Source of the DNA: Dehalococcoidia bacterium
GTDB taxonomy: Bacteria > Chloroflexota > Dehalococcoidia > GIF9 > AB-539-J10
Length of the DNA: 46,054 nucleotides
Direction of reading: 5' to 3'
NCBI GenBank assembly: GCA_047920855.1
Contig: JBLRXG010000001.1
Span: 1-46,054 of the forward strand
Position 1 is the stretch's first letter. Each line of letters begins with the position of its first letter. Below the pieces are notes generated by a model. It was not told where the DNA came from, made no database searches, and saw only the letters and a list, made by a program, of their open reading frames with translations. Below, one piece after another: positions 744 through 43,036 of this stretch. A program made the position numbers and the translations under genes.

Positions 744-1982
744 ATGGCAGAACCTTCACCTCAGGGACAGGGTATGGACATAAGGGTGTTCGCAGTCCTG
801 CTTCTGTGCGTCTTCTGTTCATTGCTGGGTGTGGGGATAGTGAGCCCGTTGCTGCCGCTATACGCCGAGGCTATGGGAGCAAGCGGGGTGCTGCTGGGCA
901 TGATCTTCAGTTCCTTCACGATAACGCGGGCAATAGTCATTCCCTTCATCGGTCCGCTCTCAGATCGCCGAGGCAGGAAGCTCTTTCTGCTCATCGGATT
1001 CGGCGGTTTCACCCTGGCTACATTGGGCTACGTGCTGGCAATCACGCCGCTCCATCTGATCCTGACGCGTGCCGTGCAGGGAGCCACGGCGGGCATGATG
1101 CTGCCCATCGCCAGGGCGTTCATCGGCGACCTCTGCCCCAGGGGTGAGGAAGGCAGATGGCAGGGCATAGCCAATGCGGCCTTCTTCGGCGGCTTCGCAA
1201 TGGGGCCGCTCATCGGAGGGCCGATAGCTGAGTTGCACGGGTACAACGCGGCCTTCTACTTAATGGGGGGGATCTGTATGCTCAGCTTCCTGCTGGCCCT
1301 CCGCTTCCTGCCGGAAAGCGGATCACGCCGCAGCGGAGGAGGAAGCCAATCCCCAACCGACTCCTTCAAGCTGATTCGCAGCAACGGCATGTTCCGCGGT
1401 CTCACCTTTTATCGAACGGCCCTTGCCCTTGCACGCGGCTGTCTCATGACCTTCCTACCCGTCTTCGCCGCTTCCTCACTGAAGATAGGCGTGGGACTGA
1501 TCGGGATAATGCTGGCAGTTCACAATCTGCTCAGGGCATCAGTGCAGCCGTACTTCGGTGGCCTGGCCGACAGGTTCAACAGGCGCACGCTGGTGATCAT
1601 TGGTGCCCTGTCCCACATCGCCTTCTTCTTCCTGATCCCGATGGACTACGCCTACTGGCAGCTACTGGTGCTGGTCGCCTTCGGGGGCATTGCCGCCGCC
1701 ATCGCCATGCCCGCGATGACCGCCCTGTACACCGAGCAGGGCAGGATCTCGGGCATGGGCACTGCCATGTCCATGGAGATGCTGGCGATGGCCGTAGGCA
1801 TGGGCATAGGACCGATTGCCGGCGGGCTGGTAGCGGACGCTATCAACGTTCAAGCTGTGTTCTACTTCTCCGCCGCAGTGCAAGTCGTAGGTATCGCCCT
1901 GTTCTACATGCTAACCAGGGACTACAGCGCCAACAAAGGGATTGCCAGCGAGAAGCCGCCCGACATCCAGCCGCACGATTGA
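744..1982 (+). CDS. MFS transporter
   Basis: About 12 hydrophobic segments and an MFS loop motif (GPLSDRRGRK). ATG at 744 was chosen over the upstream GTG-type start at 663, which would overlap the preceding gene. Confidence 0.85.
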   Translation: MAEPSPQGQGMDIRVFAVLLLCVFCSLLGVGIVSPLLPLYAEAMGASGVLLGMIFSSFTITRAIVIPFIGPLSDRRGRKLFLLIGFGGFTLATLGYVLAITPLHLILTRAVQGATAGMMLPIARAFIGDLCPRGEEGRWQGIANAAFFGGFAMGPLIGGPIAELHGYNAAFYLMGGICMLSFLLALRFLPESGSRRSGGGSQSPTDSFKLIRSNGMFRGLTFYRTALALARGCLMTFLPVFAASSLKIGVGLIGIMLAVHNLLRASVQPYFGGLADRFNRRTLVIIGALSHIAFFFLIPMDYAYWQLLVLVAFGGIAAAIAMPAMTALYTEQGRISGMGTAMSMEMLAMAVGMGIGPIAGGLVADAINVQAVFYFSAAVQVVGIALFYMLTRDYSANKGIASEKPPDIQPHD

Positions 1983-2133
1983 TGTCCCCGACATCGTACC
2001 TTGCCCGCCCGACTCAACAAAAGGCACGGGCCAGGAAGTCTCGCTTCTGTGTTCCACCAAATCGTGCGACCCTTCGCCCGCCCTCGCCCGGTTCTGCTTT
2101 GACAGCCATCGGGAGTTAGTATATATTATCAAC

Positions 2134-2148
2134 TATATAACTTATATA
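2134..2148. promoter_or_regulatory. perfect palindrome TATATAA-C-TTATATA in the only AT-rich patch upstream of marR-MATE; candidate MarR operator/promoter
   Basis: Read directly. It lies 25 nt upstream of the MarR ATG (2173) inside an AT-rich block (2116-2150) in otherwise GC-rich DNA. Confidence 0.45.
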
Positions 2149-2172
2149 CCATCATCAGGGCGAAGTTCTAGC

Positions 2173-2640
2173 ATGGACTCGAAGGCTCGTCAAGATACGC
2201 TGGAAAAGGTGTCGATAGACCTGCTGTCTATCCCGCCGCTCATTTTCCGACAGATACGCAGAAAGGTGATCAAGACCACCCTGAGCGATCTCAAGGGAGG
2301 TATCACCCTGCACCAGTTCGAGATCATCAGGTTGCTTGAGAATGAGGGAAACCTGCACATCGCCGAAATCGGCGACAGACTTCACATCGCCAGAGCGCAG
2401 ATGACCCAACTAATAGACAAGCTGGCACGCCTTAGACTGGTGGAAAGACATGCCGACATGACCGACAGGCGGACCACTATCGTTACCCTGTCCGGCCACG
2501 GAAAATCGGTCTGGAAGGAACATAAGGCCAGCGTGATGCACGCCGTTCAGGAGACCGTTTCACAGCTACCAGATGAGGACCTGAGATCTCTGTCCGATAC
2601 ACTGGAGAAGCTCCAGGAAATACTGTCCAGACTGCGCTAG
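2173..2640 (+). CDS. MarR family transcriptional regulator
   Basis: Winged-HTH MarR pattern (LHQFEIIRLL..IAEIGDRLHIARAQMTQLIDKLARLRLVERHADMTDRRTTIVTLS). The internal ATG at 2173 gives the usual ~155 aa. Confidence 0.85.
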   Translation: MDSKARQDTLEKVSIDLLSIPPLIFRQIRRKVIKTTLSDLKGGITLHQFEIIRLLENEGNLHIAEIGDRLHIARAQMTQLIDKLARLRLVERHADMTDRRTTIVTLSGHGKSVWKEHKASVMHAVQETVSQLPDEDLRSLSDTLEKLQEILSRLR

Positions 2641-2688: not shown

Positions 2689-4056
2689 ATGAACAACAGC
2701 CGCCAGAACATACTCGACGACGACCGGATCGGCCGCCTGATGGTCAAGCTGTCCCTCCCCGCGCTCACCGGCATTCTCGTGATGACCCTCTACAACGTGG
2801 TCGATACCATCTTCGTGGGGCATTATGTGGGCCCGGATGGCATCGCCGGCCTGACCATAGTCTTCCCCGCGCAGATGCTCATGATGGCGATCGGGCAGAT
2901 GATGGGGATGGGAGGCTCATCGCTGATCTCCCGATCGATCGGAGCAGGGAAGATCGAAAGGGCAGAGCACGCGCTGGGCAACGCCCTTACGGCGGCTGCA
3001 GCACTCTCAGTGATAGTCATGATAGTCGGCCTAACCAACACCGACGCTCTACTCAGGCTGATGGGGGCATCGGAGAGCGTCCTGCCTCACGCCCGCGACT
3101 ACATGACATTCATACTAGTTTCCGTGCCATTCAAAACGATCACCATGGCAATGAACGCCCTGATAAGAGCAGAGGGCAACGCCCGCGTTCCCATGGTCGG
3201 GATGATTATGGGTGCCGTCCTGAACATCATACTTGACGCCGTATTCATCGTACTGCTGGGCATGGGTATAAGAGGAGCGGCTCTGGGCACCTTGATAGCG
3301 TCCATTGTCACCGCCTCTTACTTCATCATCTACTACGTGTCGGGCAGGAGCTTCCTGAAGATCCACACGAATAACCTCGCTATCGAATGGGGCATCCTGG
3401 GAGCCATTCTCGCCATAGGGATCTCTGCATTCGTGAATCTCTCGGCCGGCAGTCTGGCAATAGTCTTCATCAACAGGACGCTGGCCGCCTTAGGAGGTGA
3501 TGTAGCCATCTCCGCCTACGGGCTTGTCAATCGCATTATGTCGTTCGTCTTTATGCCCGGTATCGTCATCGGGATGGGCCTGCAGCCTATCCTGGGGTTC
3601 AACTACGGCGCAAAGCGCTATGACAGGGCACTGAAGGCCATCAAGATAGCCGTGATCGCTGCTACAGCCATCAGCATCGCCGCATTCCTGGCTGTATACT
3701 TCGTTCCTGAGGTATTCATCCGTATCTTTACCACCGACAGAGATGTAATCGCAATGGGAGGCTACGCTGCCAGGCACATCTTCTTCCTGAAATACCTCGT
3801 AGGCTTCATCATGATCGGCTCTGTGATCTTCCAGGCCATAGGCAAGGCGCCCCAGGCGTTCATAATAGCAATTGCCAGGCCGGTCGTGTTCCTGCTTCCG
3901 CTGGTCTTCATACTGCCCAACTACTGGCAGCTTGACGGCGTGTGGCTGGCATTTCCCGGCGCAGACCTGCTTACCTTCATAATGGTTCTTGTTCTACTCA
4001 TCCCGCAGATTCGGACGTTCCGCAGGCTGGACCACGCGAGCCGCGGCGAGGTTTGA
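2689..4056 (+). CDS. MATE family efflux transporter
   Basis: 455 aa with 12 TM segments and a typical MATE N-terminus (LMVKLSLPALTGILVMTLYNVVDTIFVGH). Lies 48 nt downstream of marR. Confidence 0.9.
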   Translation: MNNSRQNILDDDRIGRLMVKLSLPALTGILVMTLYNVVDTIFVGHYVGPDGIAGLTIVFPAQMLMMAIGQMMGMGGSSLISRSIGAGKIERAEHALGNALTAAAALSVIVMIVGLTNTDALLRLMGASESVLPHARDYMTFILVSVPFKTITMAMNALIRAEGNARVPMVGMIMGAVLNIILDAVFIVLLGMGIRGAALGTLIASIVTASYFIIYYVSGRSFLKIHTNNLAIEWGILGAILAIGISAFVNLSAGSLAIVFINRTLAALGGDVAISAYGLVNRIMSFVFMPGIVIGMGLQPILGFNYGAKRYDRALKAIKIAVIAATAISIAAFLAVYFVPEVFIRIFTTDRDVIAMGGYAARHIFFLKYLVGFIMIGSVIFQAIGKAPQAFIIAIARPVVFLLPLVFILPNYWQLDGVWLAFPGADLLTFIMVLVLLIPQIRTFRRLDHASRGEV

Positions 4057-4370
4057 CCGACACGCTCGAAGGTCATCCGGCGCTCCAGCGATGATGCAGA
4101 ATCACTTACGTATGACCTCAATCGATCCGCCCGGTTGACGAGATCGTGATAGTAGGTCGCAGTCGTGTACACAAGGATCAGCAACCTGAGCTAGCGCAGC
4201 AGTGATTCGCGGCGGTTGCGATCACCCCGGCTGCTTGTCCACCCCGCGATAGGCTACTCAGAACCCTTCGATTCCTCGCCGGCATTCCCGAAGGTTCCGT
4301 GACAAGCGCTCCCTCTGAACGCAACAGACCTATTACCCATCGGATAGAATATCCTTTATACTTAAGAGCG

Positions 4371-4772
4371 ATGCAGACCTTTCTACCTTATCCTGAGTTC
4401 GATAGATCGGCTGCCGTCCTGGATAGACAGCGACTGGGCAAGCAGAGGGTGGAGGCATATCAGATCATGCGCGCCATCGCCCTGGGAAACGGCTGGTCGA
4501 ATCACCCGATCGTCAGAATGTGGACGGGCTATGAAGAGGCACTCAAGCTGTATTCAAACGTGATGGTGGAGGAATGGATAAGGCGTGGCTACCGAAACAA
4601 CATGGAGATATATGACATCACAGAGCCGATGATCGAGTATCCATGGTGGCTTGGCACTGAGGAATTTCACGCCTCACACCGGGCGGCACTGCTTGCCAAG
4701 GATTATCCTCACTACTCCCAATACGGGTGGAGCGAAATCCCGCGTATCGAGTACGTGTGGTATCGAGCATGA
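4371..4772 (+). CDS. MSMEG_6728 / pyrimidine-dimer DNA glycosylase-like family protein
   Basis: The N-terminus MQTFLPYPEFDRSAAVLDRQRLGKQRVE matches my recollection of this conserved small family. ATG at 4371 was preferred over the GTG at 4299. Confidence 0.55.
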   Translation: MQTFLPYPEFDRSAAVLDRQRLGKQRVEAYQIMRAIALGNGWSNHPIVRMWTGYEEALKLYSNVMVEEWIRRGYRNNMEIYDITEPMIEYPWWLGTEEFHASHRAALLAKDYPHYSQYGWSEIPRIEYVWYRA

Positions 4773-4809
4773 CGACGGAGACTTCCTGATGAAAGAGGAG
4801 GACCGACAG

Positions 4810-5160
4810 ATGATTGAAAGACTCGACTTCTACTGCTGGGTAAGGTGAACTACCTGTCGCAAAGCGAAAGAGTTTCTTTCGCAACAGGGCATCCAGATCA
4901 ACGAGCGCGATTTCTTCAAGAGCCCATTCACGCGGGATGAGATCACGGATCTACTGAAGGGCAAGTCCCCTTCCGAGATGTTCAACTTCAGAAGCCCGAG
5001 CTTCAAGCAGATGGGGCTGTCGAGGGAGGCTCTGAGCGATGATGATCTCGTTGGTCTGATGCTGAAAGAGCCCAGGCTTGTTCGCAGGCCCGTCGTGCGT
5101 ATAGGGGACGCCGTGTACTTCGGCGCTGACAGATCAGTACTCGAACGTCTGCTACCTTGA
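4810..5160 (+). CDS. ArsC/Spx/YffB-family thioredoxin-fold protein with in-frame TGA (4846-4848) read as selenocysteine (UxxC)
   Basis: ORF-track fragments 4651..4848 and 4978..5160 are in the same frame. The joined product is MIERLDFYCWVR-U-TTCRKAKEFLSQQGIQINERDFF..EPRLVRRPVV.. and aligns along its length to Spx/ArsC. AGGAGG lies 9 nt upstream of the ATG at 4810. A hairpin follows directly after the TGA. Confidence 0.6.
4853..4888 (+). promoter_or_regulatory. SECIS-like stem-loop immediately 3' of the in-frame TGA
   Basis: Lower stem CCTGT (4853-57) pairs with ACAGG (4884-88). Upper stem GCGAAAGA (4864-71) pairs with TCTTTCGC (4875-82). The apical loop is GTT, about 25 nt after the UGA. Confidence 0.5.
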
Positions 5161-5267
5161 TACGAGGCAGTCACACAATTCAGCATCTCGTGAACACTTG
5201 CCAGCAATACCTCACAGGGTGGTCCATGCGTACCAGGACCGGGCACAGGTGAAGCGTTCTCTCCCTT

Positions 5268-6905
5268 CTACCAAGGATCAATGAAATCGTGACTTGTACT
5301 CCCTGTGCGTTCGACGGCAGCAGCTTTGAGGCCCTTCGCGATCCATCCGCGTGTAGCAGCAGGGTCAATAACGGCGTCGATCTCAAGGTGAGAGGCCATG
5401 TTCATGGCCTTCCCTCTTTCATATGCCAGGGACACCAGGCTTTCGTAGAGCGCTTCACGCTCCTGCGGGTCTTCGACTGCCTCAAGCTCCTTTCTGAATC
5501 CGGCCTTGACCGCACCCTCCAGTCCCATCCCACCGAACTCCCCCGTTGGCCACGCAACCGCAAAGACGGGCTCGTGGAAACCCCCCTTGGCCATGGCCAT
5601 TGCCCCCAGTCCATACCCTCTGCGGAGAAAGACAGTAAAGAAGGGTACCGATAGATGTGATCCTACCACGAACAAACGGCAGCCGTGGCGAACCTGAGCG
5701 CGTCGCTCAGTCTCCGGCCCCACCATGAATCCCGGAGTATCGACCAGCGATACGATGGGCAGACCATGTGCGTTGCAGAGCTGCATGAAGCGCGCGGCCT
5801 TGTCCGCGCCATCCGCTTCAATGGCGCCGCCGAGGTGTTTGCAGTTATTGGCTATCACCCCAAGAGGATTGCCCTCGATGCGCATCAGCCCCGTGATCAT
5901 CTCCAGCCCAAATCCGGATCTCAGCTCGAGAAATGAGCCTGTATCAGCCGTCGTCTCTATGATGGTCCGCACATCGTAGGCGTATCGCCGCTGCTCTGGA
6001 ACCATGCCGCGAAGAAGGCGCTGATCGGCCGCCTCCCACTGGGCAATCGATCCCTGGAAGTAGGACAGATACTCCTTGGCGACTGCAACAGCCTCCGCAT
6101 CATCTGCCACTGCAATGTCGACAACGCCATTTTTCGTCTGTACAGCCATAGGCCCGATATCCTCGGGCTTGAAAGCACCAAGCCCCCCACCCTCGACCAT
6201 TACCGGGCCAGCCATCCCAATGCTGGAATTCTCTGCCGCAATAATCACATCACAGCACCCAAGCAGCACGGCATTGCCGGCAAAGCATCGACCCGATACG
6301 ATGCCCACAAGTGGTACTCTGCCGCTCAACTGTGCAAACATGGCAAAGGTCGTTAGATCCAGACCGGCCACCACAACGCCATCCGCGTCCACGTCTCCTG
6401 GCCTACCACCACCGCCTTCAGCAAACAAGACCACGGGCAGTCTCTGCTCGCGGGCCAGTCTCAGCATACGATCCTTCTTCTTGTGCCCGAAGAACCCCTG
6501 AGTACCGGCCAGGACCGTGTAATCGTAGGCTATGACCATGCAGCGGGCCCTGTCCTCTGCAAACAACGACCCGTTGACCGATCCGATCCCTGCGATCACT
6601 GCATCGGCCGGTGTCTTTCTCATGAGGTGTTCCATGGATCTGCGTTGTCGCTGAGCGGCCACTGCCAGGGCACCGTACTCGACGAAATCGCAATCACAGA
6701 GGTCTTCTATGTTCGCACGAACCATGCGCTGATTCCTCGCCTGTCGTCGCGCAACTGCCTCAGGCCGCCTATCATCGGCGAGCCAGGAGTGCCTCTCTAT
6801 CACCTCTTTGAGATCAGCGCGCATCGACTCCTGATCAGATCGCTGCTCTGTCGACTGAGGGTTCCGTCCGTCCTTCACTTCGTAGTCTCTCTCAGATTCT
6901 TCCAT
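5268..6905 (-). CDS. acyl-CoA carboxylase carboxyltransferase (beta) subunit family protein
   Basis: Two crotonase-like carboxyltransferase halves (GSVNG..AYDYTVLAGTQG; PIVSLVDTPGFMVG..E..G..RHG). AGGAG lies upstream of the ATG at 6905. Confidence 0.85.
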   Translation of the reverse strand: MEESERDYEVKDGRNPQSTEQRSDQESMRADLKEVIERHSWLADDRRPEAVARRQARNQRMVRANIEDLCDCDFVEYGALAVAAQRQRRSMEHLMRKTPADAVIAGIGSVNGSLFAEDRARCMVIAYDYTVLAGTQGFFGHKKKDRMLRLAREQRLPVVLFAEGGGGRPGDVDADGVVVAGLDLTTFAMFAQLSGRVPLVGIVSGRCFAGNAVLLGCCDVIIAAENSSIGMAGPVMVEGGGLGAFKPEDIGPMAVQTKNGVVDIAVADDAEAVAVAKEYLSYFQGSIAQWEAADQRLLRGMVPEQRRYAYDVRTIIETTADTGSFLELRSGFGLEMITGLMRIEGNPLGVIANNCKHLGGAIEADGADKAARFMQLCNAHGLPIVSLVDTPGFMVGPETERRAQVRHGCRLFVVGSHLSVPFFTVFLRRGYGLGAMAMAKGGFHEPVFAVAWPTGEFGGMGLEGAVKAGFRKELEAVEDPQEREALYESLVSLAYERGKAMNMASHLEIDAVIDPAATRGWIAKGLKAAAVERTGSTSHDFIDPW

Positions 6906-10327: not shown

Positions 10328-11322
10328 TATCTCCCGCGTCTTCTCCCCCTGATCATCTGCTTCATCTCATGCATCGGGCCGGCCTCTTGCTCCCTGATGC
10401 TGCGTCCGGTAACCTGCAGAAAGACATCCTCCAGGGTAGGACGGGCCAGGCCCACCGAGTTTATCGGCACGGGGAAACCGGACACGAAGCCGGGCAGGAA
10501 CTCCTCGCCGCGGGGCACGGTGAAACTGATGACGCCGTTCCTCATGCTTGGAGTGAGCTTGTAGTGCCCCACCAGCACACGCATCGCCTCGTCGTTGTCC
10601 TCGGTCCTGACCGAGATGACATCGCCGCCAACACCGTCTTTCAGTGCTTCCAGGGTGTCCATGACCACGATCCGGCCGTAGTCTATGATGGCGACACGGT
10701 CGCAGTTCTCGGCCTCATCCATGTAGTGGGTGGTCATGAAGATGGTCAGGTTATCCCGCTTGCGCAGGTCATGGATATAATCCCAGATACGGCGACGGGT
10801 CTGCGGATCCAGCCCCAGGGTGGGCTCGTCGAGGAAGAGCACCCTGGGACGGTGCAAGAGGCCGCGGGCTATCTCGAGGCGGCGTTTCATTCCGCCGGAG
10901 TAGGTTCTGATCTTGGCTTTGCGCCTGTCCCACAGCTCCACCATCTCCAGCAACTCCTTCAGACGCGACTCCAGAACATCCCTGGGGACGGCATAAGCGT
11001 AGCCGTGGAAACGCAGATTCTGTTCAGCCGTCAGGTAGTCGTCGAGCGTCGACTCCTGGAAGATGAGGCCTATCGACTCGCGCACCTTCCTGCATTCTTT
11101 GACAACGTCATATCCGTTGACCCGGGCCTCTCCGGCGGTAGGATAGAGAAGGGTGCAGAGTATGTTTATGGCCGTGGTCTTGCCCGCCCCGTTAGGGCCC
11201 AGAAAGCCGAATATCTCGCCCTCGCGGACTGTGAAGGATACGCCCCTCACCGCCTCGAGCTTGCCGAACCTCTTCACAAGGTCACTGACTTCGATCACAT
11301 TCATCGGTTCCTCCACCGTCAC
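10327..11322 (-). CDS. ABC transporter ATP-binding protein (DrrA-like)
   Basis: Walker [10 protein letters not shown], signature YSGGMKRRL, Walker B VLFLDEPT. Alternative start at 11304. Confidence 0.9.
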
Positions 11323-11746
11323 TGAGAACTTCTACCAGTGCCTCCAGTCCCGTCCGCAGGGACACCAGGGCTGCATCCGGCATCTTCTCCAGCACCTCCC
11401 TCATTCTGGCAGCTCCCAGCGCCCGCAGCCGCTCCACCTCACCTCTTCCCTCCTCAGTTAGAGAAAGGACGCAGCTACGGCGGTCGGCCGGGTTTTCCCG
11501 GCGGCTAACCAGTCCCTTCTTCACCAGCCGGTCGATGGGCCCTGTGACATTGGCCCTGGCTACACCGAACGATGTCGCCACCTGACCCGGCGAACTCCTT
11601 CCTCTGGCGTAGAGCAGGAACATTATGCGTAACTGCTCCCGCGTCACCCTGAGATCGAGCCAGGGGTGAGGCTCCCGGGCCCGGGCGGAGAGCATGAGGT
11701 CCTTCATCAACCCCACTACGCACTCGATATACTCGCTCTTGCTCAT
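11282..11746 (-). CDS. MarR family transcriptional regulator
   Basis: MarR wHTH (LRIMFLLYARGRSSPGQVATSFGVARANVTGPIDRLVKKGLVSRRENPADRRS). The start could instead be 11782. The 3' end overlaps the ABC ATPase start. Confidence 0.8.
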   Translation of the reverse strand: MSKSEYIECVVGLMKDLMLSARAREPHPWLDLRVTREQLRIMFLLYARGRSSPGQVATSFGVARANVTGPIDRLVKKGLVSRRENPADRRSCVLSLTEEGRGEVERLRALGAARMREVLEKMPDAALVSLRTGLEALVEVLSDGGGTDECDRSQ

Positions 11747-11769
11747 AACCGAACGGCCCTGAGAATTGT

Positions 11770-11800
11770 CAACATCACGCATATAATATAGCTGATGTTG
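11770..11800. promoter_or_regulatory. 8-bp inverted repeat CAACATCA-N15-TGATGTTG enclosing TATAAT; candidate MarR operator in the divergent promoter region
   Basis: Read directly. It sits between the divergent marR (minus) and the 11891 gene (plus). Confidence 0.45.
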
Positions 11801-13328: not shown

Positions 13329-14417
13329 ATGGAGATTCAGAGGAAACCTTTCGATGCCGTCGCTCCCGGGCCGGTTGCCATCTTCGGTTCGGGAGAGACC
13401 TCTGCCAGCGGACGCAGAGTCTACGAGTGGCTATTCCGCCGGTCATCTCCCCCGGTCCGGGTGTCCGTGCTTGAGACGCCGGCCGGCTTTCAGCCCAACT
13501 CGGCCCAGGTTGCGGGCAAAGTGGGCGATTTCCTGCGCCGCCACCTGCAGAACCACCGGCCGGTCATCGATATAGTTCCCGCGCGGAGGCGAGGCGATCA
13601 CCTCGGTACCGACGATGAGGGCATCCTCTCTCCCGTCCTATCGGCGGACATGATCTTCCTGGGACCCGGCAGTCCCACCTACGCAGTCCGGCACCTGCAG
13701 GGAAGCATCGCCTGGCACACAATCCAGGCCTGTCACCGCCAGGGAGCATCCCTTGTGCTGGCGAGCAGCGCAGCGATCGCCGCCGGCGCCAGGGCGCTGC
13801 CTGTGTATGAGATCTATAAGGCGGGCGAAGACCTGCACTGGCGGGATGGACTCGACCTGTTCGGCCCGTACGGCCTATCGCTGGTTTTTGTCTCGCACTG
13901 GAACAACACCGAGGGCGGTTCCGAGCTTGATACCAGCCGCTGTTACATGGGTGCTGCGCGCTTCCACCGCCTGCTGGAGATGCTGCCACCCGACCTCACT
14001 GTCGTGGGCGTAGACGAGCATACCGCCCTCCTGCTAGACCCGGCGGAGGAGAATTGCCGGGTGATGGGGAGAGGCGGCGTGACTCTCTTGAGAAGTGGAC
14101 AGGAGGACATGTTTGGCTCCGGTCAGACCTTCCCCATAACCGAGTTGGGCCGGTTGCGCAGCATCGACCCCCGGAGCGGTGTTCCCGTTGGCATATGGGC
14201 GCGCGTCGCGGAAGCCAGGCACAGGTCACCTGATGCCGCCGTTTCTGAGCCTCCTCCGGAAGTCCTATCACTCGTGGAGGCAAGAGAAAAGGCGCGGTCG
14301 AGTGCCGACTGGAAGGCTTCGGACGCTCTGCGCGAGCAGATCCGCGTGTCGGGCTGGAGAATCGAGGATACGCCCGGCGGCCCTCAGTTGACCCCTACCT
14401 GCGATGCTGCTGAGTGA
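13329..14417 (+). CDS. hypothetical fusion: peptidase-S51/GATase1-like N-domain plus CysRS-C-terminal-like domain
   Basis: The C-terminus LVEAREKARSSADWKASDALREQIRVSGWRIEDTPGGPQL resembles the C-terminal extension of cysteinyl-tRNA synthetase. The N-terminal domain assignment is weak. Confidence 0.55.
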   Translation: MEIQRKPFDAVAPGPVAIFGSGETSASGRRVYEWLFRRSSPPVRVSVLETPAGFQPNSAQVAGKVGDFLRRHLQNHRPVIDIVPARRRGDHLGTDDEGILSPVLSADMIFLGPGSPTYAVRHLQGSIAWHTIQACHRQGASLVLASSAAIAAGARALPVYEIYKAGEDLHWRDGLDLFGPYGLSLVFVSHWNNTEGGSELDTSRCYMGAARFHRLLEMLPPDLTVVGVDEHTALLLDPAEENCRVMGRGGVTLLRSGQEDMFGSGQTFPITELGRLRSIDPRSGVPVGIWARVAEARHRSPDAAVSEPPPEVLSLVEAREKARSSADWKASDALREQIRVSGWRIEDTPGGPQLTPTCDAAE

Positions 14418-18284: not shown

Positions 18285-19742
18285 TCAGTCGAGCGTGGGA
18301 CGCTCTCCGGACACCAGTTCGGCGGCCGGGTCAGCCACCGGAGGCTGACTCCAGATGCCGCTTCGTTTCTGCAACCGGTACTCGCGGTAGAGCCATAGCC
18401 CTGCGACAAGCGCACCACCGGCATCCGATATCGGAAGGGACACCCAGACCCCCGTCAGCCCCATGAAGCGCGGCAAGATGAGCAACATGGGAAGCAGAAA
18501 ACCCAACTGGCGTACCAGCGAGAGAGCGATGGCCGTCCACCCCCTGGACAGGCCCTGAAAGGTGATGATGAACATGAAAGCCGGACCGATAAGAAAGAGC
18601 GCCGAGATGAAGATGCGCATCCCCGGAACAGCAATGGCCAGCAGCTCGGGGCTGTCGTTGAATATCGCTATCACGTTCGGCGCGAAGATGGCCAGCAAGA
18701 TGCTTGCCGCACCGAGTACCCCGGCTACCATCAGCGAGCCCTGCCGGACGGCCGCCCAAAGACGCTCCCAGAGGCGTGCTCCGAAACAGAAACCCACTAT
18801 AGGCAGAAGGGCATGAGCAACCCCGACCACCGGTATGAAGGCAAGGTCGGCAATGCGCCCGGCTATTCCCAGTGCCGCCAGCGCAAGCGAACCGAAACCG
18901 GCGACAATACGGTTGAACACGACGAAGACGAACGCCTCACTAAGGTCCATCAGGATCGTGGGCAGACCAACACGGTAGATCTGGGTTATGATCGACAGGT
19001 CGGGCTTGAGGTGGTGCAGCTTCAGCTTGTAGACGGAGCCTCTGCGCAGCAGAAAGTAGCAACTCAGTCCACTGGCCACTGCCCCCGATATCGTCGTCGC
19101 CAGTCCCGCCCCGGCGATACCCATCTGCGGGAAGGGCCCCCAACCGAAGATCAGAAACGGGTCGAGGGCAGCGTTGACCACGGAGCCGACGACGGTGAAA
19201 ATCATAGGCTTCATGGCATCGCCGGCGGCCTGGAAGACGTTGCGCGTCATCACACGAAAGAGGAGGAAGGGCACGCCCAAACCGGTGAAGACCAGGTAAT
19301 CCACGGTCAGATCCATGATTCCGGACGGCGCTCCGAGCAGGCCCGCCAGTTGCCTGGCCAGGAGGACGCTGATAGCCATGAAGACGAGCCCGAACACCAG
19401 TGAGAGCGGGAAGACCTGGCCTGCAACCTGGTTGGTGGCCTCGACATTCCCTTCCCCGAAGCGGCGCGACGCGAGGGCGTTGGCACCGACGCCGGAGCCA
19501 TAGCCTATGGCGAACACCACTATCTGAAAGGGAAAGGTGATGGTTACCGCGGCGATCGCCTCATAGCTGAGCCGTCCCAGCCAGAAGGTATCGGCCAGGA
19601 GGTAGAGCGACATGGCGATCATCGAGACCATGCTGGGCGCACCAAGCCGCAGGAGCAGCTTGCTAAGCCGCTCCGTGCCCAGACGCGCAGTTGTCTCGTT
19701 AAGTCCGCCCTTCTTCTCTGTATCCATCTGCATCATAGTCAA
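18285..19742 (-). CDS. MATE family efflux transporter
   Basis: 485 aa, 12 TM segments, MATE-type N-terminus (LSKLLLRLGAPSMVSMIAMSLYLLADTFWLGR). Confidence 0.9.
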   Translation of the reverse strand: MTMMQMDTEKKGGLNETTARLGTERLSKLLLRLGAPSMVSMIAMSLYLLADTFWLGRLSYEAIAAVTITFPFQIVVFAIGYGSGVGANALASRRFGEGNVEATNQVAGQVFPLSLVFGLVFMAISVLLARQLAGLLGAPSGIMDLTVDYLVFTGLGVPFLLFRVMTRNVFQAAGDAMKPMIFTVVGSVVNAALDPFLIFGWGPFPQMGIAGAGLATTISGAVASGLSCYFLLRRGSVYKLKLHHLKPDLSIITQIYRVGLPTILMDLSEAFVFVVFNRIVAGFGSLALAALGIAGRIADLAFIPVVGVAHALLPIVGFCFGARLWERLWAAVRQGSLMVAGVLGAASILLAIFAPNVIAIFNDSPELLAIAVPGMRIFISALFLIGPAFMFIITFQGLSRGWTAIALSLVRQLGFLLPMLLILPRFMGLTGVWVSLPISDAGGALVAGLWLYREYRLQKRSGIWSQPPVADPAAELVSGERPTLD

Positions 19743-26525: not shown

Positions 26526-26802
26526 TCTCCCGACCTCATTTCGCGCATCCGGCTTAAGATTACACAAGGTCACCGGTCAAAGTAACGCGTGCCTACCAGA
26601 TATTCTACACCGTGCTGACATGGCGGGCAAAAAGGGTGCCAGCACGATACCCAGTGAGTTGTTCGCATGATAGTATTAGCCGCGTTCTGGCGAGACAGTA
26701 CGTAAGTACACAGCACGGAGGTAGCCTGTGGCAACAAGACCAACGAGAAAACCAAAGGTGGCCGAGAAGAAGCCACACAGAAGCATAAAGGAGGAGAATC
26801 GT

Positions 26803-27258
26803 ATGCCCAAACAACCAGAAGGCGAAGGCCTGTATTCCAAAGCTTCGATATCGCTGTACAGAACCCGTGACCTGCTCTTCCGATGCGAAGACCGAGCAGT
26901 CGGGAAGTTCGGGCTCACTGCCGAGCAGTATTCGGTGCTGGCCGCCATGAAGCAGCTCGATGATCCGGTAAGGCCGACCGACGTAGGCCGGTTGCTGGAC
27001 CACAAGGTGAACACGGTGAGCATGATAGTCGACCGCATGGTCAATGCCGGGCTGGTGGAAAGGGTGAGAGACCTACCCGACCGCAGGGAGGTACGTCTCA
27101 TCATCACAGCCAAGGGAGAGAAGGCCTTCAAGCCGGCACATGCAGCAGCGACCAAGCTCAGCAAGGATATGCTGTCCTCGCTGTCGCAGGACGACGTCAA
27201 GACCCTGACAAAGCTCCTCGAGACCGTAAGAACAAGGGCATATCAGCAACTCAAGTAG
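26803..27258 (+). CDS. MarR family transcriptional regulator
   Basis: LTAEQYSVLAAM..PTDVGRLLDHKVNTVSMIVDRMVNAGLVERVRDLPDRREVRL. AGGAGG lies upstream of the ATG at 26803. Confidence 0.8.
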   Translation: MPKQPEGEGLYSKASISLYRTRDLLFRCEDRAVGKFGLTAEQYSVLAAMKQLDDPVRPTDVGRLLDHKVNTVSMIVDRMVNAGLVERVRDLPDRREVRLIITAKGEKAFKPAHAAATKLSKDMLSSLSQDDVKTLTKLLETVRTRAYQQLK

Positions 27259-36210: not shown

Positions 36211-36834
36211 TCACCATGCCTTGATATGTCTGGCTATGCTGCATAGCGCTTCGAACGCCTCGGCAGAAGGCAGCGAATAGTCAGTCTTTATTCGCACGTA
36301 TCCGTGCTTTGGCTCGGGGATGATCCCGATATTGCCCGTAACCACCTTACCATCGGCTTTCAGCAGCCTGTCGGCAAGACTATAGTCGAAGTTCAGCGTC
36401 TGTGCCAGCGAAACGTCTCCCTTCCACTGAATTCCCATTACCCTGCCCCAGATGAGCGGACTCCTCCTTTTCGTCAGCCTGGTTCTCTTGAGCATCCGGG
36501 CCGCGCTGATGTTCGGCGCCTTGACCAGATAGTTTATGAAATACGTTGTGCCGTACTGAGTAGACGTGCTGATCACGGTTGCCGAATCTATGCTCCTGTC
36601 CTCGAAGACAGCTACTCCCTCAGCCTTCTGGCCTGAGGCGCTCCCCAGCCCTATTCTTCCTCTGGCATCGTCATGTTCAGCCTGGGAGACCTGCACCCCA
36701 ACACCCCAGAAGTGCTGAAAGAGCTCATGTAGCTTAGATCCCTCCGCTTTCTTCCTCTTCCGCAATATCAGAGGCAGGGCCACGCCGATAAGGAGCGCTA
36801 TTAGAGGGCCGATGATGCCGGGCCAGCCTTCCAT
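36211..36834 (-). CDS. membrane-anchored hypothetical protein (one N-terminal TM)
   Basis: 207 aa with TM segment GIIGPLIALLIGVALPLIL followed by RKRKK. Starts 4 nt after the purC stop. No family recognised. Confidence 0.55.
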   Translation of the reverse strand: MEGWPGIIGPLIALLIGVALPLILRKRKKAEGSKLHELFQHFWGVGVQVSQAEHDDARGRIGLGSASGQKAEGVAVFEDRSIDSATVISTSTQYGTTYFINYLVKAPNISAARMLKRTRLTKRRSPLIWGRVMGIQWKGDVSLAQTLNFDYSLADRLLKADGKVVTGNIGIIPEPKHGYVRIKTDYSLPSAEAFEALCSIARHIKAW

Positions 36835-40638: not shown

Positions 40639-41097
40639 TTATCCTTTGGCCAGTTCCTCTTTGTGCTTGCGGAAGGCTTCTCTTATCTCCCTGTTCTCAA
40701 GTCCCAGAATCTGGGCGGCCAGCAGGGCCGCGTTCTTGGCCCCGCTTGCTCCGATACCCGTACAGGCTACCGGGATTCCGCCCGGCATCTGGGCTATTGA
40801 GAGCAGGGCATCCACGCCCTTTAGTTCACTCGTGGGCAAGGGCACGCCGATCACGGGCAGGGTTGTCCAGCTGGCCAGCACACCGGGAAGATGGGCGGCA
40901 TAGCCAGCTCCGGCGATGAGCACCTTCAGTCCTTTCCCCTCCGCCTCCAGACCGTACTCCCTCGCCCTGTCGGGGTTTCTGTGGGCCGAGATAACAGAGA
41001 ACTCGTGCTCGATTCCCAGCTCCTTGAGCATGTCCAGAGCCGGCTGTATCAACTCGGTGTCCCTCTTGCTGCCTATTACTACACCTACCAATGCCAT
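40639..41097 (-). CDS. purE: 5-(carboxyamino)imidazole ribonucleotide mutase
   Basis: VGVVIGSKRD .. VISAHRNPD .. AGAGYAAHLPGV .. LPVIGVP .. LLSIAQMPGGIPV. Confidence 0.9.
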   Translation of the reverse strand: MALVGVVIGSKRDTELIQPALDMLKELGIEHEFSVISAHRNPDRAREYGLEAEGKGLKVLIAGAGYAAHLPGVLASWTTLPVIGVPLPTSELKGVDALLSIAQMPGGIPVACTGIGASGAKNAALLAAQILGLENREIREAFRKHKEELAKG

Positions 41098-41175
41098 TCT
41101 TTCGTAACTCCTTACTATTGTGTTCGGCGCCCGCCGGATGCCGAGTTCTCAACCACCGGCCGCACTCCGCCGCGC

Positions 41176-42459
41176 TCAGCGGCTAGAGTTTATACCACCT
41201 ATCTCTCTCAAGGCAATGTCCTTGCGATAGTAGCAGCCCTCAAAGGATATGCGGGATATGTTGTCATAGACCCTGCCCCGGGCTTCAGCTATGCTCTTGC
41301 CTGTGGCCGCCACTGTGATCACACGCCCACCATCGGTACGGACCGTACCGTCACTTGCCAGCCTGGTACCGGCGTGGAAGACGAGCACATCCTTATCGAC
41401 GCTATCCAATCCCTGTATGGGAAGCCCCGTCTGATAGCTGCCGGGATAGCCTCCGGAGGCCATCACCACCCCGACGCAGGCCATGGGACTCCACTCTATG
41501 TTCACTTGTTCCAGCCTGCCTTCTGCCACCGCCATGAGCACATCGACCAGGTCGGTCCTCAAGAGAGGCAGGACCACCTGGGTCTCGGGATCGCCAAAGC
41601 GGGCGTTGAACTCCAGGACCCATGGCTCACCGTCGCTTATCATCAGGCCGGCATAGAGCGCCCCCCTGTATGCTACACCTTCCGCAGCCAGGGCCCTGAC
41701 CGCGGACAGGAGAACGTCCCCCGTCACCTTCTCCGTCATTCCCCTGGAGAAGAAGCCCGGAGGGCTGTAGCTTCCCATACCGCCCGTGTTAGGACCGACG
41801 TCGTTGTCCCCGATCTTCTTGTAGTCGCACGCCGGCACCATCGGCGACACCGTTTTGCCGTCGGAAAAAGCGATCAGGCTCACCTCGCGACCCTCGAGGA
41901 ACTCATCTATCACCACCCTGTCCCCGGCGGCACCGAAGGCCTTCTCCTCCATCATATACGCCAGGGCCCTGTCGGCCTCCTCAAGAGAACCGGCTATGAT
42001 AACGCCTTTGCCCGCCGCCAGTCCGTCGGCCGCGATCACAATGGGCATCTTCTGCTCTCGCAGGTACTCGCGGGCCTTCTGGTAGGACGAGAAGACGGCG
42101 CCCCTGGGGCAGGGAATGCCGTGTTTCTCCATCAGTTCCCGGGCGAAGCCCTTGCTCGATTCTATGCGGGCAGCCGCCCTGGTGGGGCCGAAGGCCGGGA
42201 CACCCAGCGCATCAAGGTGATCCACTATGCCGGCTGCCAGCGGGGCCTCGGGACCGACCACCACAAGGTCGATGGCCCGTTCTAGGGCTGCCTTGCCCAG
42301 GCTTTCGATATCGGTCGGGAGCAGATCCAGGTTCTCGGCTATCGACGCCGTGCCCGCGTTTCCCGGGGCGACGAAGACCTTCTCCACCCTGGGACTCTGG
42401 ACGATCTTCCAGACCAGGGTGTGTTCCCTGCTTCCGTTACCGATGACCAGTATCTTCAA
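41176..42459 (-). CDS. purD: phosphoribosylamine-glycine ligase
   Basis: MKILVIGNGSREHTLVWKI, ATP-grasp fold. TTG start preceded by GGTGGTGAG. Confidence 0.92.
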   Translation of the reverse strand: MKILVIGNGSREHTLVWKIVQSPRVEKVFVAPGNAGTASIAENLDLLPTDIESLGKAALERAIDLVVVGPEAPLAAGIVDHLDALGVPAFGPTRAAARIESSKGFARELMEKHGIPCPRGAVFSSYQKAREYLREQKMPIVIAADGLAAGKGVIIAGSLEEADRALAYMMEEKAFGAAGDRVVIDEFLEGREVSLIAFSDGKTVSPMVPACDYKKIGDNDVGPNTGGMGSYSPPGFFSRGMTEKVTGDVLLSAVRALAAEGVAYRGALYAGLMISDGEPWVLEFNARFGDPETQVVLPLLRTDLVDVLMAVAEGRLEQVNIEWSPMACVGVVMASGGYPGSYQTGLPIQGLDSVDKDVLVFHAGTRLASDGTVRTDGGRVITVAATGKSIAEARGRVYDNISRISFEGCYYRKDIALREIGGINSSR

Positions 42460-42537
42460 GTCTCACCACCAATACGTGTTCGCATGCCCAACAGGCTTAA
42501 CCGCTTCAGTGCATTTGGGCCCGTTCTCCTCTTTTCA

Positions 42538-42759
42538 CTAGACGGTCACCGTCTCCATCTCCACGGGAGCAACCTCCTCAGGGACCGGTTCGCCAGCCTT
42601 CTCAAGTCCTTCGATAAACCCCTGGATGGCTTCTCTGGCCCTGACCAAAGCCTCCTCTCTCGTCCGTCCAAATGTGATGCAGCCGGAAAGCGCAGGCACC
42701 CTGACCGTATAGCCTATCTCAGGATAGTTTGGTTCCAGCACTACGGTGTATCTCGCCAT
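42538..42759 (-). CDS. hicB: HicB-family antitoxin
   Basis: MARYTVVLEP..GYTVRVPALSGCITFGRTREEAL..AREAI. Starts 4 nt after hicA. Confidence 0.75.
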   Translation of the reverse strand: MARYTVVLEPNYPEIGYTVRVPALSGCITFGRTREEALVRAREAIQGFIEGLEKAGEPVPEEVAPVEMETVTV

Positions 42760-42762
42760 GTC

Positions 42763-43002
42763 TTACCTCCTAAGAAGCTCCGTGAGTTGCTCCAGGGTCA
42801 AGTCAGCCTGTTCCAGTATACCCTTCAGAGTCTTCTGCGGGATGATGTCCCCAGCCCGGACGGGTATGGTTATCTGCTTGCCCGCGCGTTCCGGGTGCCT
42901 GTAGTAGAAATGCGAACCGCGTGAATGGTGCAGATACCACCCGGCTCGGAGCACTGCCTTCTCGAGTTGCTTGCCGGTAAGCCTCGGTGCTCTCGGGCTC
43001 AT
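42763..43002 (-). CDS. hicA: HicA-family mRNA-interferase toxin
   Basis: LTGKQLEKAVLRAGWYLHHSRGSHFYYRHPE..ITIPV..GDIIPQKTLKGIL. Confidence 0.75.
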   Translation of the reverse strand: MSPRAPRLTGKQLEKAVLRAGWYLHHSRGSHFYYRHPERAGKQITIPVRAGDIIPQKTLKGILEQADLTLEQLTELLRR

Positions 43003-43036
43003 GAATACTTCTTAACAGAGTCGCTTCACCCGGGCG

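What the first reader, a model, noticed from the sequence alone, without database searches (positions are those of the whole stretch)
4789..5160. ArsC/Spx-family gene with an in-frame UGA at the CxxC position plus a SECIS-like hairpin: candidate UxxC selenoprotein
**What the sequence shows:**
- ORF-track fragments 4651..4848 and 4978..5160 share one frame and are separated only by TGA at 4846-4848.
- Reading through gives a 116-aa protein: MIERLDFYCWVR-U-TTCRKAKEFLSQQGIQINERDFFKSPFTRDEITDLL...EPRLVRRPVV...
- It is colinear with Spx/ArsC/YffB proteins (compare B. subtilis Spx [30 protein letters not shown]...HPGLLRRPII).
- The TGA falls exactly on the first Cys of the redox CxxC, the classic Cys/Sec interchange position.
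- Four nt after the TGA a stem-loop begins: 5-bp lower stem, 8-bp perfect upper stem, G/U apical loop about 25 nt from the UGA. This is the geometry expected of a bacterial SECIS.

**Why it is not a code change:** other genes in the window end with TGA as genuine stops (for example 706-708 and 5158-5160), so this is local recoding, not an alternative genetic code.

**Consequences:** gene callers would split or miss this gene. It also implies the host has selABCD. ArsC-like selenoproteins have been predicted in metagenomic surveys, as I recall, but a Spx-like UxxC protein would be functionally interesting as a redox sensor or reductase.
Basis: partly seen in the sequence, partly recalled or inferred. 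Interest (0 to 1): 0.75.

Follow-up and report, generated by a model that had tools for sequence, protein, structure and literature searches.

The report
Selenocysteine-containing ArsC/Spx-family redox protein gene
This is a real but ordinary selenoprotein gene: a 116-residue ArsC/Spx-type redox protein whose active-site cysteine is replaced by selenocysteine, encoded by UGA and followed by a conserved RNA hairpin, a kind of protein already catalogued that gene callers routinely truncate.

Summary
ATG 4810 to TGA 5160 is one reading frame, broken only by TGA 4846-4848. Read through, it gives a 116-aa ArsC-family protein (Pfam PF03960), with the TGA on the first Cys of the CxxC.

- **Conserved UGA:** the same codon is TGA in 77 of 79 orthologous loci from species-level genomes of Dehalococcoidia and Syntrophales/Smithella. 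It is TGC/TGT in real Cys-form orthologues.
- **Conserved hairpin:** an 8-bp hairpin with a GUU loop starts 15 nt after the UGA. It meets all four published bacterial SECIS constraints, is paired in 95.6% of cells, shows compensatory changes and suppressed synonymous variation, and is weaker in Cys forms.
- **No code change:** TGA ends 21 of 36 long ORFs in the window.
- **Not confirmed:** No Sec machinery lies in the window.

ArsC-family UxxS and UxxC selenoproteins have been published since 2005-2008. This clade misses the curated ArsC selenoprotein model (NF041106) and sits at the Spx/MgsR model cut-off. It also has an invariant extra Cys (FYCWxxUxxC). I file it as a new member of a known kind. 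Its biochemical role is unknown.

The parts
4795..4801 (+). Shine-Dalgarno GAGGAGG, 8 nt upstream of the start codon
   Evidence: Read directly from the sequence. The start matches Met1 of the full-length homologues.
4810..5160 (+). Coding sequence of a 116-aa ArsC/Spx-family selenoprotein (ATG 4810, Sec codon 13, stop TGA 5158-5160)
   Evidence: Translation. Pfam PF03960 E 9.9e-15. TIGR01617 74.5 bits. Full-length orthologues at 57-80% identity. AF2 model of the 80%-identical Cys form, pLDDT 91, TM 0.82-0.83 to Spx, YffB and ArsC structures.
4834..4836 (+). Codon for Cys9, invariant in the clade (FYCW), four residues before Sec
   Evidence: Invariant column in A3. TGC 68 / TGT 9 across the Sec loci.
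4846..4848 (+). UGA selenocysteine codon (residue 13), first position of the UxxC redox motif
   Evidence: TGA at the aligned codon in 77 of 79 genome loci, TGC in 2. Additional Cys forms use TGC/TGT. Aligns with Spx Cys10 and ArsC Cys12.
4855..4857 (+). Codon for Cys16, the resolving Cys of UxxC
   Evidence: Invariant in A2/A3. Aligns with Spx Cys13.
4864..4882 (+). SECIS core: 8-bp upper stem (4864-4871 / 4875-4882) with apical loop GUU (4872-4874); 15 nt separate UGA and stem, 23 nt separate UGA and loop
   Evidence: Paired in 95.6% of cells over 77 sequences, with compensatory changes at two pairs. Loop is GUU/GUA in 70 of 77 and core MFE is -8.6 kcal/mol. Synonymous variation is suppressed at codons 19 and 21-24. 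Meets the bSECIS constraints quoted in PMC13188914.
4853..4888 (+). Extended stem-loop in this window only: lower stem CCUGU (4853-4857) with ACAGG (4884-4888) around the core hairpin
   Evidence: Present in the window but paired in only 45.7% of cells across orthologues. It is probably not a required part of the element.
4299..4772 (+). Upstream same-strand gene (pyrimidine dimer DNA glycosylase, Pyr_excise), 37 nt from the start codon; possible co-transcription. Context only.
   Evidence: Pfam PF03013 E 2.5e-25. The same neighbour is in L081/L082, but in only 3 of about 80 loci overall. No promoter-like or terminator-like site was found in 4000-5400.

Best explanation
The region 4810-5160 encodes one 116-residue protein of the ArsC/Spx/YffB thioredoxin-fold superfamily. 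Codon 13 (UGA, 4846-4848) is decoded as selenocysteine.

**Decoding (inferred from the established bacterial mechanism).** The mRNA hairpin at 4864-4882 presents G4872-U4873 in its apical loop, 23 nt past the UGA. It acts as a bacterial SECIS that recruits SelB carrying GTP and Sec-tRNA(Sec), so that Sec is inserted in competition with release factor 2.

**Product and chemistry (inferred from position).** The protein carries a U13-x-x-C16 centre at the N-terminus of helix alpha-1, the classic thioredoxin-fold redox position, plus an invariant Cys9. The selenolate would act as the attacking nucleophile and Cys16 would resolve it as a selenenylsulfide. The most likely role is therefore a small cytoplasmic selenol/thiol oxidoreductase of anaerobes.

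**What is not established.** The substrate is unknown. The protein's membership of the Spx regulators or of the arsenate reductases proper is not established.
For: **Shown**
- One frame with a single internal TGA, and a strong RBS before ATG 4810.
- ArsC family by HMM and by fold.
- TGA at the homologous codon in 77 of 79 loci from two phyla, with protein-level conservation on both sides of it.
- Genuine Cys orthologues exist, including one 80% identical with TGC.
- The upper stem is paired in 95.6% of cells. GC<->AU changes at pair 27:41 occur in 15 sequences and AU<->GC at 29:39 in 31. None of 500 shuffles reached the observed covariation score, and slid controls scored lower.
- These compensations link a non-synonymous change (Ser/Leu, Lys/Arg) to a synonymous change in another codon. 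Protein-level selection does not explain that link.
- Codon choice is nearly frozen in the hairpin: GAG 77/77, UCG 42/44, Leu only CUU/CUC. Elsewhere in the gene it is near expectation.
- The hairpin is weaker in Cys forms: mean -5.1 against -7.8 kcal/mol, one-sided Mann-Whitney p 5e-4, not corrected for phylogeny.
- All four bSECIS model constraints are met.
- TGA is the main stop codon in the window.

**Inferred**
- Sec machinery is present in the host. Dehalococcoidia MAGs with 46-49 selenoprotein genes and Syntrophus with 19 are reported.
Against: - No selA, selB, selD or tRNA-Sec lies in the 46-kb window. No other TGA-interrupted gene is evident there.
- The source genome could not be identified.
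- RNAalifold run de novo did not recover the hairpin, and the window hairpin alone is not more stable than shuffles.
- One close Cys form keeps an intact hairpin (L081), so hairpin loss after Sec-to-Cys change is gradual. The Sec/Cys comparison has only nine Cys sequences.
- There is no experimental evidence of selenium incorporation.
- Function is not supported by gene neighbourhood, which is not conserved.
Confidence: 0.88

Rival explanations
1. The protein is a true Spx/MgsR-type regulator. It would bind the alpha C-terminal domain of RNA polymerase and switch transcription through a selenenylsulfide/selenol-thiol redox switch. Selenocysteine decoding would still apply; only the function differs.
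For: - The best NCBIfam model is TIGR01617 Spx/MgsR: 74.5 bits for the window protein, 77.2 for P0001, against a cut-off of 75.05.
- The best PDB sequence and fold matches are Spx (E about 1e-12, TM 0.82-0.83).
- The UxxC aligns with Spx C10xxC13, and the RRP motif is conserved.
- The clade is unusually conserved (57-80% identity) across two phyla. That would fit a conserved macromolecular partner.
Against: - Scores against the Spx models proper are far below their cut-offs: NF002459 56.5 vs 123, NF009210 39.4 vs 159.
- There is a two-residue deletion in the loop that carries Spx Gly52. From memory, that residue is needed for alpha-CTD binding. Here it aligns with Ser/Pro.
- The protein ends at residue 116 and lacks the roughly 15-residue C-terminal tail of Spx.
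- Fold similarity to YffB and ArsC is equally high.
- Characterised Spx proteins are from Firmicutes (background knowledge), not from Chloroflexota or Desulfobacterota.
Confidence: 0.12
2. The protein is a glutaredoxin-coupled arsenate reductase (ArsC R773 type). Sec13 would take the place of the catalytic Cys12 and form the Se-As intermediate.
For: - Sec13 aligns exactly with the catalytic Cys12 of ArsC R773, and Arg93 with Arg94 (R773 sequence verified against 1i9d).
- ArsC structures match the model at TM about 0.8.
- Sec-containing arsenate reductases (UxxS) are a published family.
Against: - TIGR00014 scores 43.1 bits against a cut-off of 106, and PRK10026 32.8 against 242.
- The motif is UxxC, not the C/U-G-T-S of ArsC.
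- ArsC Arg60 aligns with Asn59 in BLASTP, with the nearest Arg two residues away. Arg107 lies outside the alignment, and the candidate position 108 varies (R/K/S/Q) within the clade.
- No ars operon genes (arsB/acr3, arsR, arsA) were found among the neighbours.
Confidence: 0.08
3. The TGA is a real stop, either a pseudogene or split gene, or an assembly or sequencing error. No full-length protein is made.
For: Standard gene callers treat it this way. Public databases hold many 88-93-aa calls that start after the TGA. One locus (L042) also has a TAG at the Trp10 codon, which looks like decay.
Against: - The same TGA is present in 77 independently assembled genomes.
- Coding-type conservation sits upstream of it: invariant FYCW with synonymous variation.
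- The window has no in-frame start codon between the TGA and 4978, so a downstream start would remove the redox centre and beta-1.
- The RNA hairpin is under selection.
Confidence: 0.02
4. UGA is read by a mechanism other than Sec: reassignment to Trp or Gly (codes 4/25), or near-cognate read-through that inserts Trp or Cys.
For: Public protein databases show Trp at this position in several full-length entries.
Against: - Those 'W' entries are TGA translated with code 4 by a gene caller on short contigs. L086 DNA reads TGA, and the entry does not translate to the query under table 11.
- TGA terminates 21 of 36 long ORFs in the window.
- The position is a redox Cys in the orthologues.
- A SECIS-type hairpin with a G-U loop is conserved.
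Confidence: 0.02

Closest known systems
'Arsenate reductase 2' / 'arsenate reductase-like protein' selenoprotein family (UxxC; cd03032 ArsC_Spx, now NCBIfam NF041106 ArsC_rel_Se_1), from the GOS survey of Zhang & Gladyshev 2008 (PMC2398784; reviews PMC9312934, PMC13188914)
   Same: - ArsC-superfamily fold.
- Sec at the first position of a UxxC motif, with Cys homologues.
- A SECIS immediately downstream of the UGA.
- Function uncharacterised.
   Different: - The window protein scores 35.5 bits against NF041106 (cut-off 85). All 34 clade members tested stay in that range, with a best E of 5.6e-9. By that model it is a separate subfamily.
- It comes from anaerobic Dehalococcoidia and Syntrophales rather than the marine surface samples of the GOS survey.
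- It has the invariant extra FYCW Cys.
Sec-containing arsenate reductase (UxxS; TIGR00014 type), from the Sargasso Sea and GOS surveys; also the 'ArsC-like' and 'distant ArsC homolog' selenoproteins of Desulfotalea psychrophila and Desulfuromonas acetoxidans (PMC1794560)
   Same: Same superfamily, with Sec at the position of the catalytic Cys12.
   Different: The motif is UxxC rather than UxxS. TIGR00014 scores 43.1 bits against a cut-off of 106. The Arg triad is not clearly conserved.
Spx / MgsR (TIGR01617), RNA-polymerase-binding disulfide-stress regulators of Firmicutes (PDB 1Z3E, 3GFK, 7F75)
   Same: Best sequence and structure matches. The CxxC aligns residue for residue, the R-R-P motif is conserved, and the core is of similar size.
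   Different: - Sec replaces Cys10.
- Two residues are deleted in the Gly52 loop.
- There is no C-terminal tail.
- The phyla are different.
- Scores against the Spx-specific models are far below their cut-offs.
Canonical bacterial SECIS (the consensus bSECIS model as described in PMC13188914)
   Same: - Apical loop of 3 nt (allowed 3-9).
- Upper stem of 8 bp (allowed 4-16).
- G then U at the first two loop positions.
- 23 nt between UGA and loop (allowed 16-37).
- MFE -8.6 kcal/mol for the core and -14.1 for the 45 nt after the UGA (limit -7.5).
   Different: Nothing notable. SelB binding has not been tested.

Membership tests
Bacterial selenoprotein gene (Sec-UGA recoding) | In-frame UGA conserved at one codon across orthologues, with coding conservation on both sides | tested here: met
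   TGA in 77 of 79 loci. FYCW is invariant upstream and TCRKAKEFL is conserved downstream. Synonymous variation is seen in upstream codons.
Bacterial selenoprotein gene (Sec-UGA recoding) | Orthologues with Cys at the UGA position (Sec/Cys pair) | tested here: met
   TGC/TGT in L049, L076, L081, L083 and L087-L091.
Bacterial selenoprotein gene (Sec-UGA recoding) | SECIS hairpin just downstream that meets the bSECIS model (loop 3-9 nt, stem 4-16 bp, G in the first two loop positions, 16-37 nt from UGA, MFE <= -7.5) | tested here: met
   8-bp stem, GUU loop, 23 nt spacing, -8.6 kcal/mol core. Model as quoted.
Bacterial selenoprotein gene (Sec-UGA recoding) | Hairpin under selection as RNA (covariation, synonymous constraint) | tested here: met
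   95.6% of cells paired, two pairs with compensatory changes, 0 of 500 shuffles reaching the observed score. Synonymous entropy collapses at codons 19 and 21-24. The lower stem is not conserved.
Bacterial selenoprotein gene (Sec-UGA recoding) | selA, selB, selC (tRNA-Sec) and selD in the same genome | not testable with these tools
   None in the window: only tRNA-Gly was found, and no SelA/SelB/SelD domain among the ORFs scanned. The four long ORFs at 40891-45806 gave no hit or were not scanned. Lineage-level support comes from the literature only.
Bacterial selenoprotein gene (Sec-UGA recoding) | Selenium demonstrably incorporated (75Se labelling or mass spectrometry) | not testable with these tools
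   Needs an experiment.
ArsC/Spx/YffB superfamily (Pfam PF03960) | HMM score above the gathering threshold, and the ArsC-type thioredoxin fold | tested here: met
   55.1 bits against a cut-off of 24. AF2 model of P0001 has pLDDT 91 and TM 0.82-0.84 to 3GFK, 1RW1, 3F0I and 1SK0.
Spx/MgsR subfamily (TIGR01617) | Score at or above the curated cut-off of 75.05 bits | tested here: inconclusive
   The window protein (U replaced by C) scores 74.5. The Cys-form orthologue P0001 scores 77.2. All 34 members hit the model.
Spx proper (NF002459 / NF009210; B. subtilis Spx) | Model cut-offs; the Gly52 loop that contacts the RNA polymerase alpha-CTD; the C-terminal tail | tested here: not met
   56.5 vs 123 and 39.4 vs 159 bits. 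Two residues are deleted at the Gly52 loop, and Gly52 aligns with Ser53. The protein ends where the Spx core ends. The roles of Gly52 and the tail are from memory of the Spx literature.
Glutaredoxin-dependent arsenate reductase (TIGR00014 / ArsC R773) | Model cut-off; catalytic Cys12 plus the Arg60/Arg94/Arg107 triad | tested here: not met
   43.1 vs 106 bits. Cys12 aligns with Sec13 and Arg94 with Arg93. Arg60 aligns with Asn59, and Arg107 is not alignable.
ArsC family (seleno)protein NF041106 (published 'arsenate reductase-like', UxxC) | Score at or above the curated cut-off of 85 bits | tested here: not met
   35.5 bits for the window protein and 33.4 for P0001. The best E among 34 clade members is 5.6e-9.

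The most novel reading that the evidence does not exclude
The clade may be a selenium-dependent Spx/MgsR-like transcription factor outside the Firmicutes. It would be an RNA-polymerase-binding redox sensor whose switch is a selenenylsulfide (U13-C16, possibly with Cys9 as a third redox partner). This would give strict anaerobes (Dehalococcoidia, Syntrophales) a far more oxidant-sensitive trigger than the Cys-Cys switch of Spx. To my knowledge no selenoprotein transcription regulator has been characterised.
Probability: 0.1. Interest if true: 0.7.

Novelty: new member of a known kind. Interest (0 to 1): 0.3.

Why it matters
- **Annotation.** The gene is systematically mis-annotated. Public protein sets hold it as 88-93-aa truncations, as entries with a spurious Trp (code 4), or not at all. 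The Cys forms are named 'Spx/MgsR family transcriptional regulator' or 'arsenate reductase'. Correct models would need a Sec-aware rule for TIGR01617-like proteins.

- **Biology.** This subfamily uses Sec almost always (77 of 79 species-level loci). It is shared by two unrelated anaerobic phyla that co-occur in digesters and sediments. It has a three-residue C-x3-U-x2-C centre. It is a reasonable target for asking what small ArsC/Spx-like redox proteins do outside the Firmicutes.

- **Mechanism.** It does not change what is known about Sec decoding.

Tried and rejected
- **RNAalifold on the 77-sequence alignment.** It returned an unrelated weak structure (-1.35 kcal/mol) and missed the hairpin. 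I relied instead on explicit pair counting with controls and on per-sequence folding.
- **Single-sequence fold of 4840-4910.** z -0.84, not significant on its own.
- **Rfam at gathering thresholds.** Only tRNA-Gly was found. This search reported no bacterial SECIS match.
- **Scan of the window for other TGA-interrupted genes.** Nothing convincing besides 4846.
- **Search for Sec machinery in the window.** None found.
- **Identifying the source contig by exact look-up of the neighbouring 557-aa carboxyltransferase.** Not on record.
- **Gene-neighbourhood analysis of 80 loci.** No partner is conserved in more than 13 loci, so no functional inference was drawn.
- **Structure prediction with my U-to-C edited window sequence.** I used the natural 80%-identical Cys form P0001 instead.
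- **DNA for the 'W' protein P0003.** Not available. P0004/L086 was used instead.
- **Promoter and terminator scan of 4000-5400.** Nothing found.
- **Reading the E. coli minimal-SECIS paper PMC147357.** The paper is not held.
Full report
**1. The observation**

The sequence is as described. Translating 4810-5160 on the + strand gives MIERLDFYCWVR*TTCRKAKEFLSQQGIQINERDFFKSPF...RLVRRPVVRIGDAVYFGADRSVLERLLP*. There is one internal stop, TGA at 4846-4848, and a terminal TGA at 5158-5160. The mechanical ORFs 4651..4848 and 4978..5160 lie in this frame. After the TGA there is no ATG/GTG/TTG in frame until 4978. Any conventional gene call therefore loses strand beta-1 and the whole redox centre. A GAGGAGG Shine-Dalgarno sequence (4795-4801) sits 8 nt before ATG 4810. 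That ATG corresponds to Met1 of the full-length homologues.

TGA is not reassigned.

**2. What the protein is**

With Cys substituted for the stop, the protein matches these models:

| Model | Score (bits) | Cut-off (bits) |
|---|---|---|
| Pfam ArsC PF03960 | 55.1 (E 9.9e-15) | 24 |
| TIGR01617 Spx/MgsR | 74.5 | 75.05 |
| NF002459 Spx | 56.5 | 123 |
| TIGR00014 arsenate reductase | 43.1 | 106 |
| NF041106 'ArsC family (seleno)protein' | 35.5 | 85 |

The closest solved structures by sequence are Spx proteins (E about 1e-12), followed by ArsC-like proteins and ArsC R773.

An AlphaFold2 model of the natural Cys-form orthologue P0001 (80% identical) is confident (pLDDT 91). It superposes equally well on Spx, YffB and ArsC structures (TM 0.82-0.84). 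Fold therefore confirms the superfamily but does not pick a subfamily.

In the alignments the UGA falls on Spx Cys10 and on ArsC R773 Cys12, and Cys16 falls on Spx Cys13. I entered the R773 sequence from memory and verified it as identical to 1I9D. In the model, residue 13 lies at the N-terminus of helix 14-24. That is the usual place for a thioredoxin-fold redox nucleophile.

**3. Comparative evidence for Sec**

A scan of one genome per GTDB species returned 234 confirmed relatives, of which the best 80 were kept. They come from Dehalococcoidia/Chloroflexota and from Syntrophales/Smithella (Desulfobacterota) MAGs, at 57-79% identity over the whole 116 residues. The aligned codon is TGA in 77 of the 79 loci I could parse, counting the window, and TGC in two.

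The residues before the UGA are under protein-level selection. F7, Y8, C9 and W10 are invariant or nearly so, while their codons vary synonymously: TTC/TTT 27/47, TAC/TAT 15/33, TGC/TGT 68/9.

Genuine Cys forms exist. P0001 (TGC), P0043 (TGT), P0009, P0022, P0026, P0044 and P0005 (all TGC) translate exactly under table 11.

The public protein collection also shows why the gene goes unnoticed:
- Many entries are 88-93-aa truncations that start after the UGA.
- Several full-length entries carry Trp at position 13. For P0004 the DNA reads TGA and does not translate to the entry under table 11, so the Trp is a code-4 gene call on a short contig.

**4. The SECIS**

In the window the hairpin is GCGAAAGA-GUU-UCUUUCGC (4864-4882). 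It starts 15 nt after the UGA, with the loop 23 nt after it. I counted pairs on a gap-free alignment of 77 Sec loci (A2).

- **Pairing.** The eight upper-stem pairs are standard pairs in 95.6% of cells.
- **Compensation.** Pair 27:41 is GC in 45 sequences, GU in 16 and AU in 15. Pair 29:39 is AU in 41, GC in 31 and GU in 5.
- **Controls.** 63 cells carry a change on both sides, against 32.5 +/- 6.4 in shuffles. None of 500 shuffles reached that count or the observed covariation score. All slid registers scored lower.
- **Not a protein-level effect.** The covarying positions couple a non-synonymous change to a synonymous change in another codon. Ala19 GCG/GCA covaries with Ser/Leu24 UCG/UUG, and Lys/Arg20 AAA/AGR with Leu23 CUU/CUC.
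- **Frozen codon choice.** Glu21 is GAG in 77 of 77. Ser24 is UCG in 42 of 44. Leu23 uses only CUU/CUC (entropy 0.97 against 2.27 expected). Ala19 uses only GCG/GCA (0.76 against 1.93). The rest of the gene is close to expectation.
- **Loop.** The apical loop is GUU or GUA in 70 of 77, and G33 and U34 are invariant.
- **Published model.** The bSECIS model requires a 3-9-nt loop, a 4-16-bp stem, G in the first two loop positions, 16-37 nt from UGA to loop, and MFE <= -7.5 kcal/mol (PMC13188914). All are met here: 3 nt, 8 bp, GU, 23 nt, and -8.6 kcal/mol for the core or -14.1 for the 45 nt after the UGA.
- **Cys forms.** The core hairpin is weaker in the nine distinct Cys forms, with a mean of -5.1 against -7.8 kcal/mol. 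Five of nine Cys forms are weaker than -5, against 6 of 77 Sec forms (one-sided Mann-Whitney p 5e-4, not phylogeny-corrected). Examples are E21D removing the loop G (L049, L091) and a broken stem (L083). The closest Cys form (L081) still has the intact hairpin, as expected for a recent change.

Two caveats apply. RNAalifold run de novo did not find the hairpin. The window's hairpin alone is not exceptional against shuffles. I regard it as incidental.

**5. What could not be shown**

The window has no tRNA-Sec; only tRNA-Gly was found. No SelA, SelB or SelD domain appears among the ORFs scanned. No other convincing TGA-interrupted gene is present.

That the host decodes Sec is therefore an inference from lineage. 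Dehalococcoidia MAGs with 46-49 selenoprotein genes are among the richest in BSepDB (PMC13326102). Syntrophus aciditrophicus has 19 selenoproteins including SelD (PMC1794560).

**6. Function**

Gene neighbourhood gives no help. The most frequent neighbour, a membrane protein, occurs in 13 loci. A Staygreen-family gene follows in 11 loci. The Pyr_excise gene that precedes it in the window recurs in only a few loci.

- **Against a bona fide arsenate reductase:** UxxC rather than CGTS; TIGR00014 far below its cut-off; Arg60 and Arg107 not clearly conserved; no ars genes nearby.
- **Against a bona fide Spx:** a two-residue deletion in the loop carrying Gly52, which aligns with Ser/Pro; no C-terminal tail; Spx-specific models far below their cut-offs; non-Firmicute hosts.

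The best-supported statement is a small cytoplasmic selenol/thiol oxidoreductase with a U13xxC16 centre and an invariant Cys9 nearby. The substrate is unknown. I put about 0.1 on an Spx-like regulatory role and a little less on arsenate reduction.

**7. Comparison with what is known, and novelty**

ArsC-superfamily selenoproteins are established in the bioinformatic literature:
- 'ArsC-like' and 'distant ArsC homolog' in Desulfotalea and Desulfuromonas (PMC1794560).
- 'Arsenate reductase 1' (UxxS, 77 sequences) and 'Arsenate reductase 2' (cd03032, UxxC, 42 sequences) in the GOS data (PMC2398784).
- Both are listed in recent reviews, the UxxC family now tied to NF041106 (PMC9312934, PMC13188914).

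The present clade does not reach NF041106 in any of the 34 members tested. It straddles the TIGR01617 cut-off instead. It is a distinct, almost always Sec-using subfamily with a FYCWxxUxxC signature, in Dehalococcoidia and Syntrophales. I could not check whether BSepDB already files it under 'arsenate reductase-like'.

I rate it a new member of a known kind. It is useful for annotation and modestly interesting biologically, but not surprising to a selenoprotein specialist. Interest: 0.3.

Noticed in passing
L042:3022-3040 (Dehalococcoidia W425, DUFB01000034.1): This orthologue has TAG in place of the invariant Trp10 codon (FYC*VK*NTC) as well as the Sec TGA. It could be a decaying copy, a sequencing error, or something odd about UAG in that genome.
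   Followed up: no
Protein P0047, position 13: One full-length database homologue has Ser at the Sec/Cys position (FYCWVKSNTCRK). It could be a TGA-to-TCA change or a redox-dead variant. The DNA was not examined.
   Followed up: no
L086:100-102 and proteins P0003, P0004, P0010, P0012-P0020 and others: Many public full-length entries of this family carry Trp at the Sec position. For P0004/L086 the codon is TGA, apparently translated with genetic code 4 by a metagenomic gene caller on a short contig. This may be a general artefact that hides selenoproteins as 'W' variants.
   Followed up: partly
L008:3287-3805, L088:654-951, L089:653-951 and about 11 loci in all: A Staygreen-family (PF12638) gene lies immediately downstream on the same strand, 1-3 nt after the stop, in a subset of Dehalococcoidia loci. 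It is found next to both Sec and Cys forms. The reason for the pairing is unknown.
   Followed up: partly
L083:6443-9029 (Cys form P0043, GCA_964394145.1): In this Cys-form locus the gene is followed by a TehB-like SAM methyltransferase (the tellurite/selenite-methylating family) and a 674-aa Thioredox_DsbH protein. This hints at a metalloid/redox context in that lineage only.
   Followed up: no
window 4299-4772 (+); L081:5562-5966; L082:100-504: A pyrimidine-dimer DNA glycosylase (Pyr_excise) gene sits directly upstream of the selenoprotein gene in the window and in its closest relatives, with a gap of about 35 nt. That suggests an operon in this sub-lineage. The window ORF from GTG 4299 is 157 aa against 134 aa in L081, so its real start is probably further downstream.
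   Followed up: partly
window 1942-2640 (+), 11282-11782 (-), 26728-27258 (+); 2689-4056 (+), 18285-19742 (-): The window holds three MarR-family regulators, two MATE efflux pumps, an MFS transporter and several ABC exporters. It is rich in efflux and stress genes but has no ars or sel genes.
   Followed up: no
window 40891-42285 (+), 13329-14417 (+), 36211-36834 (-): Three sizeable ORFs (464, 362 and 207 aa) have no Pfam hit at E <= 1e-5.
   Followed up: no
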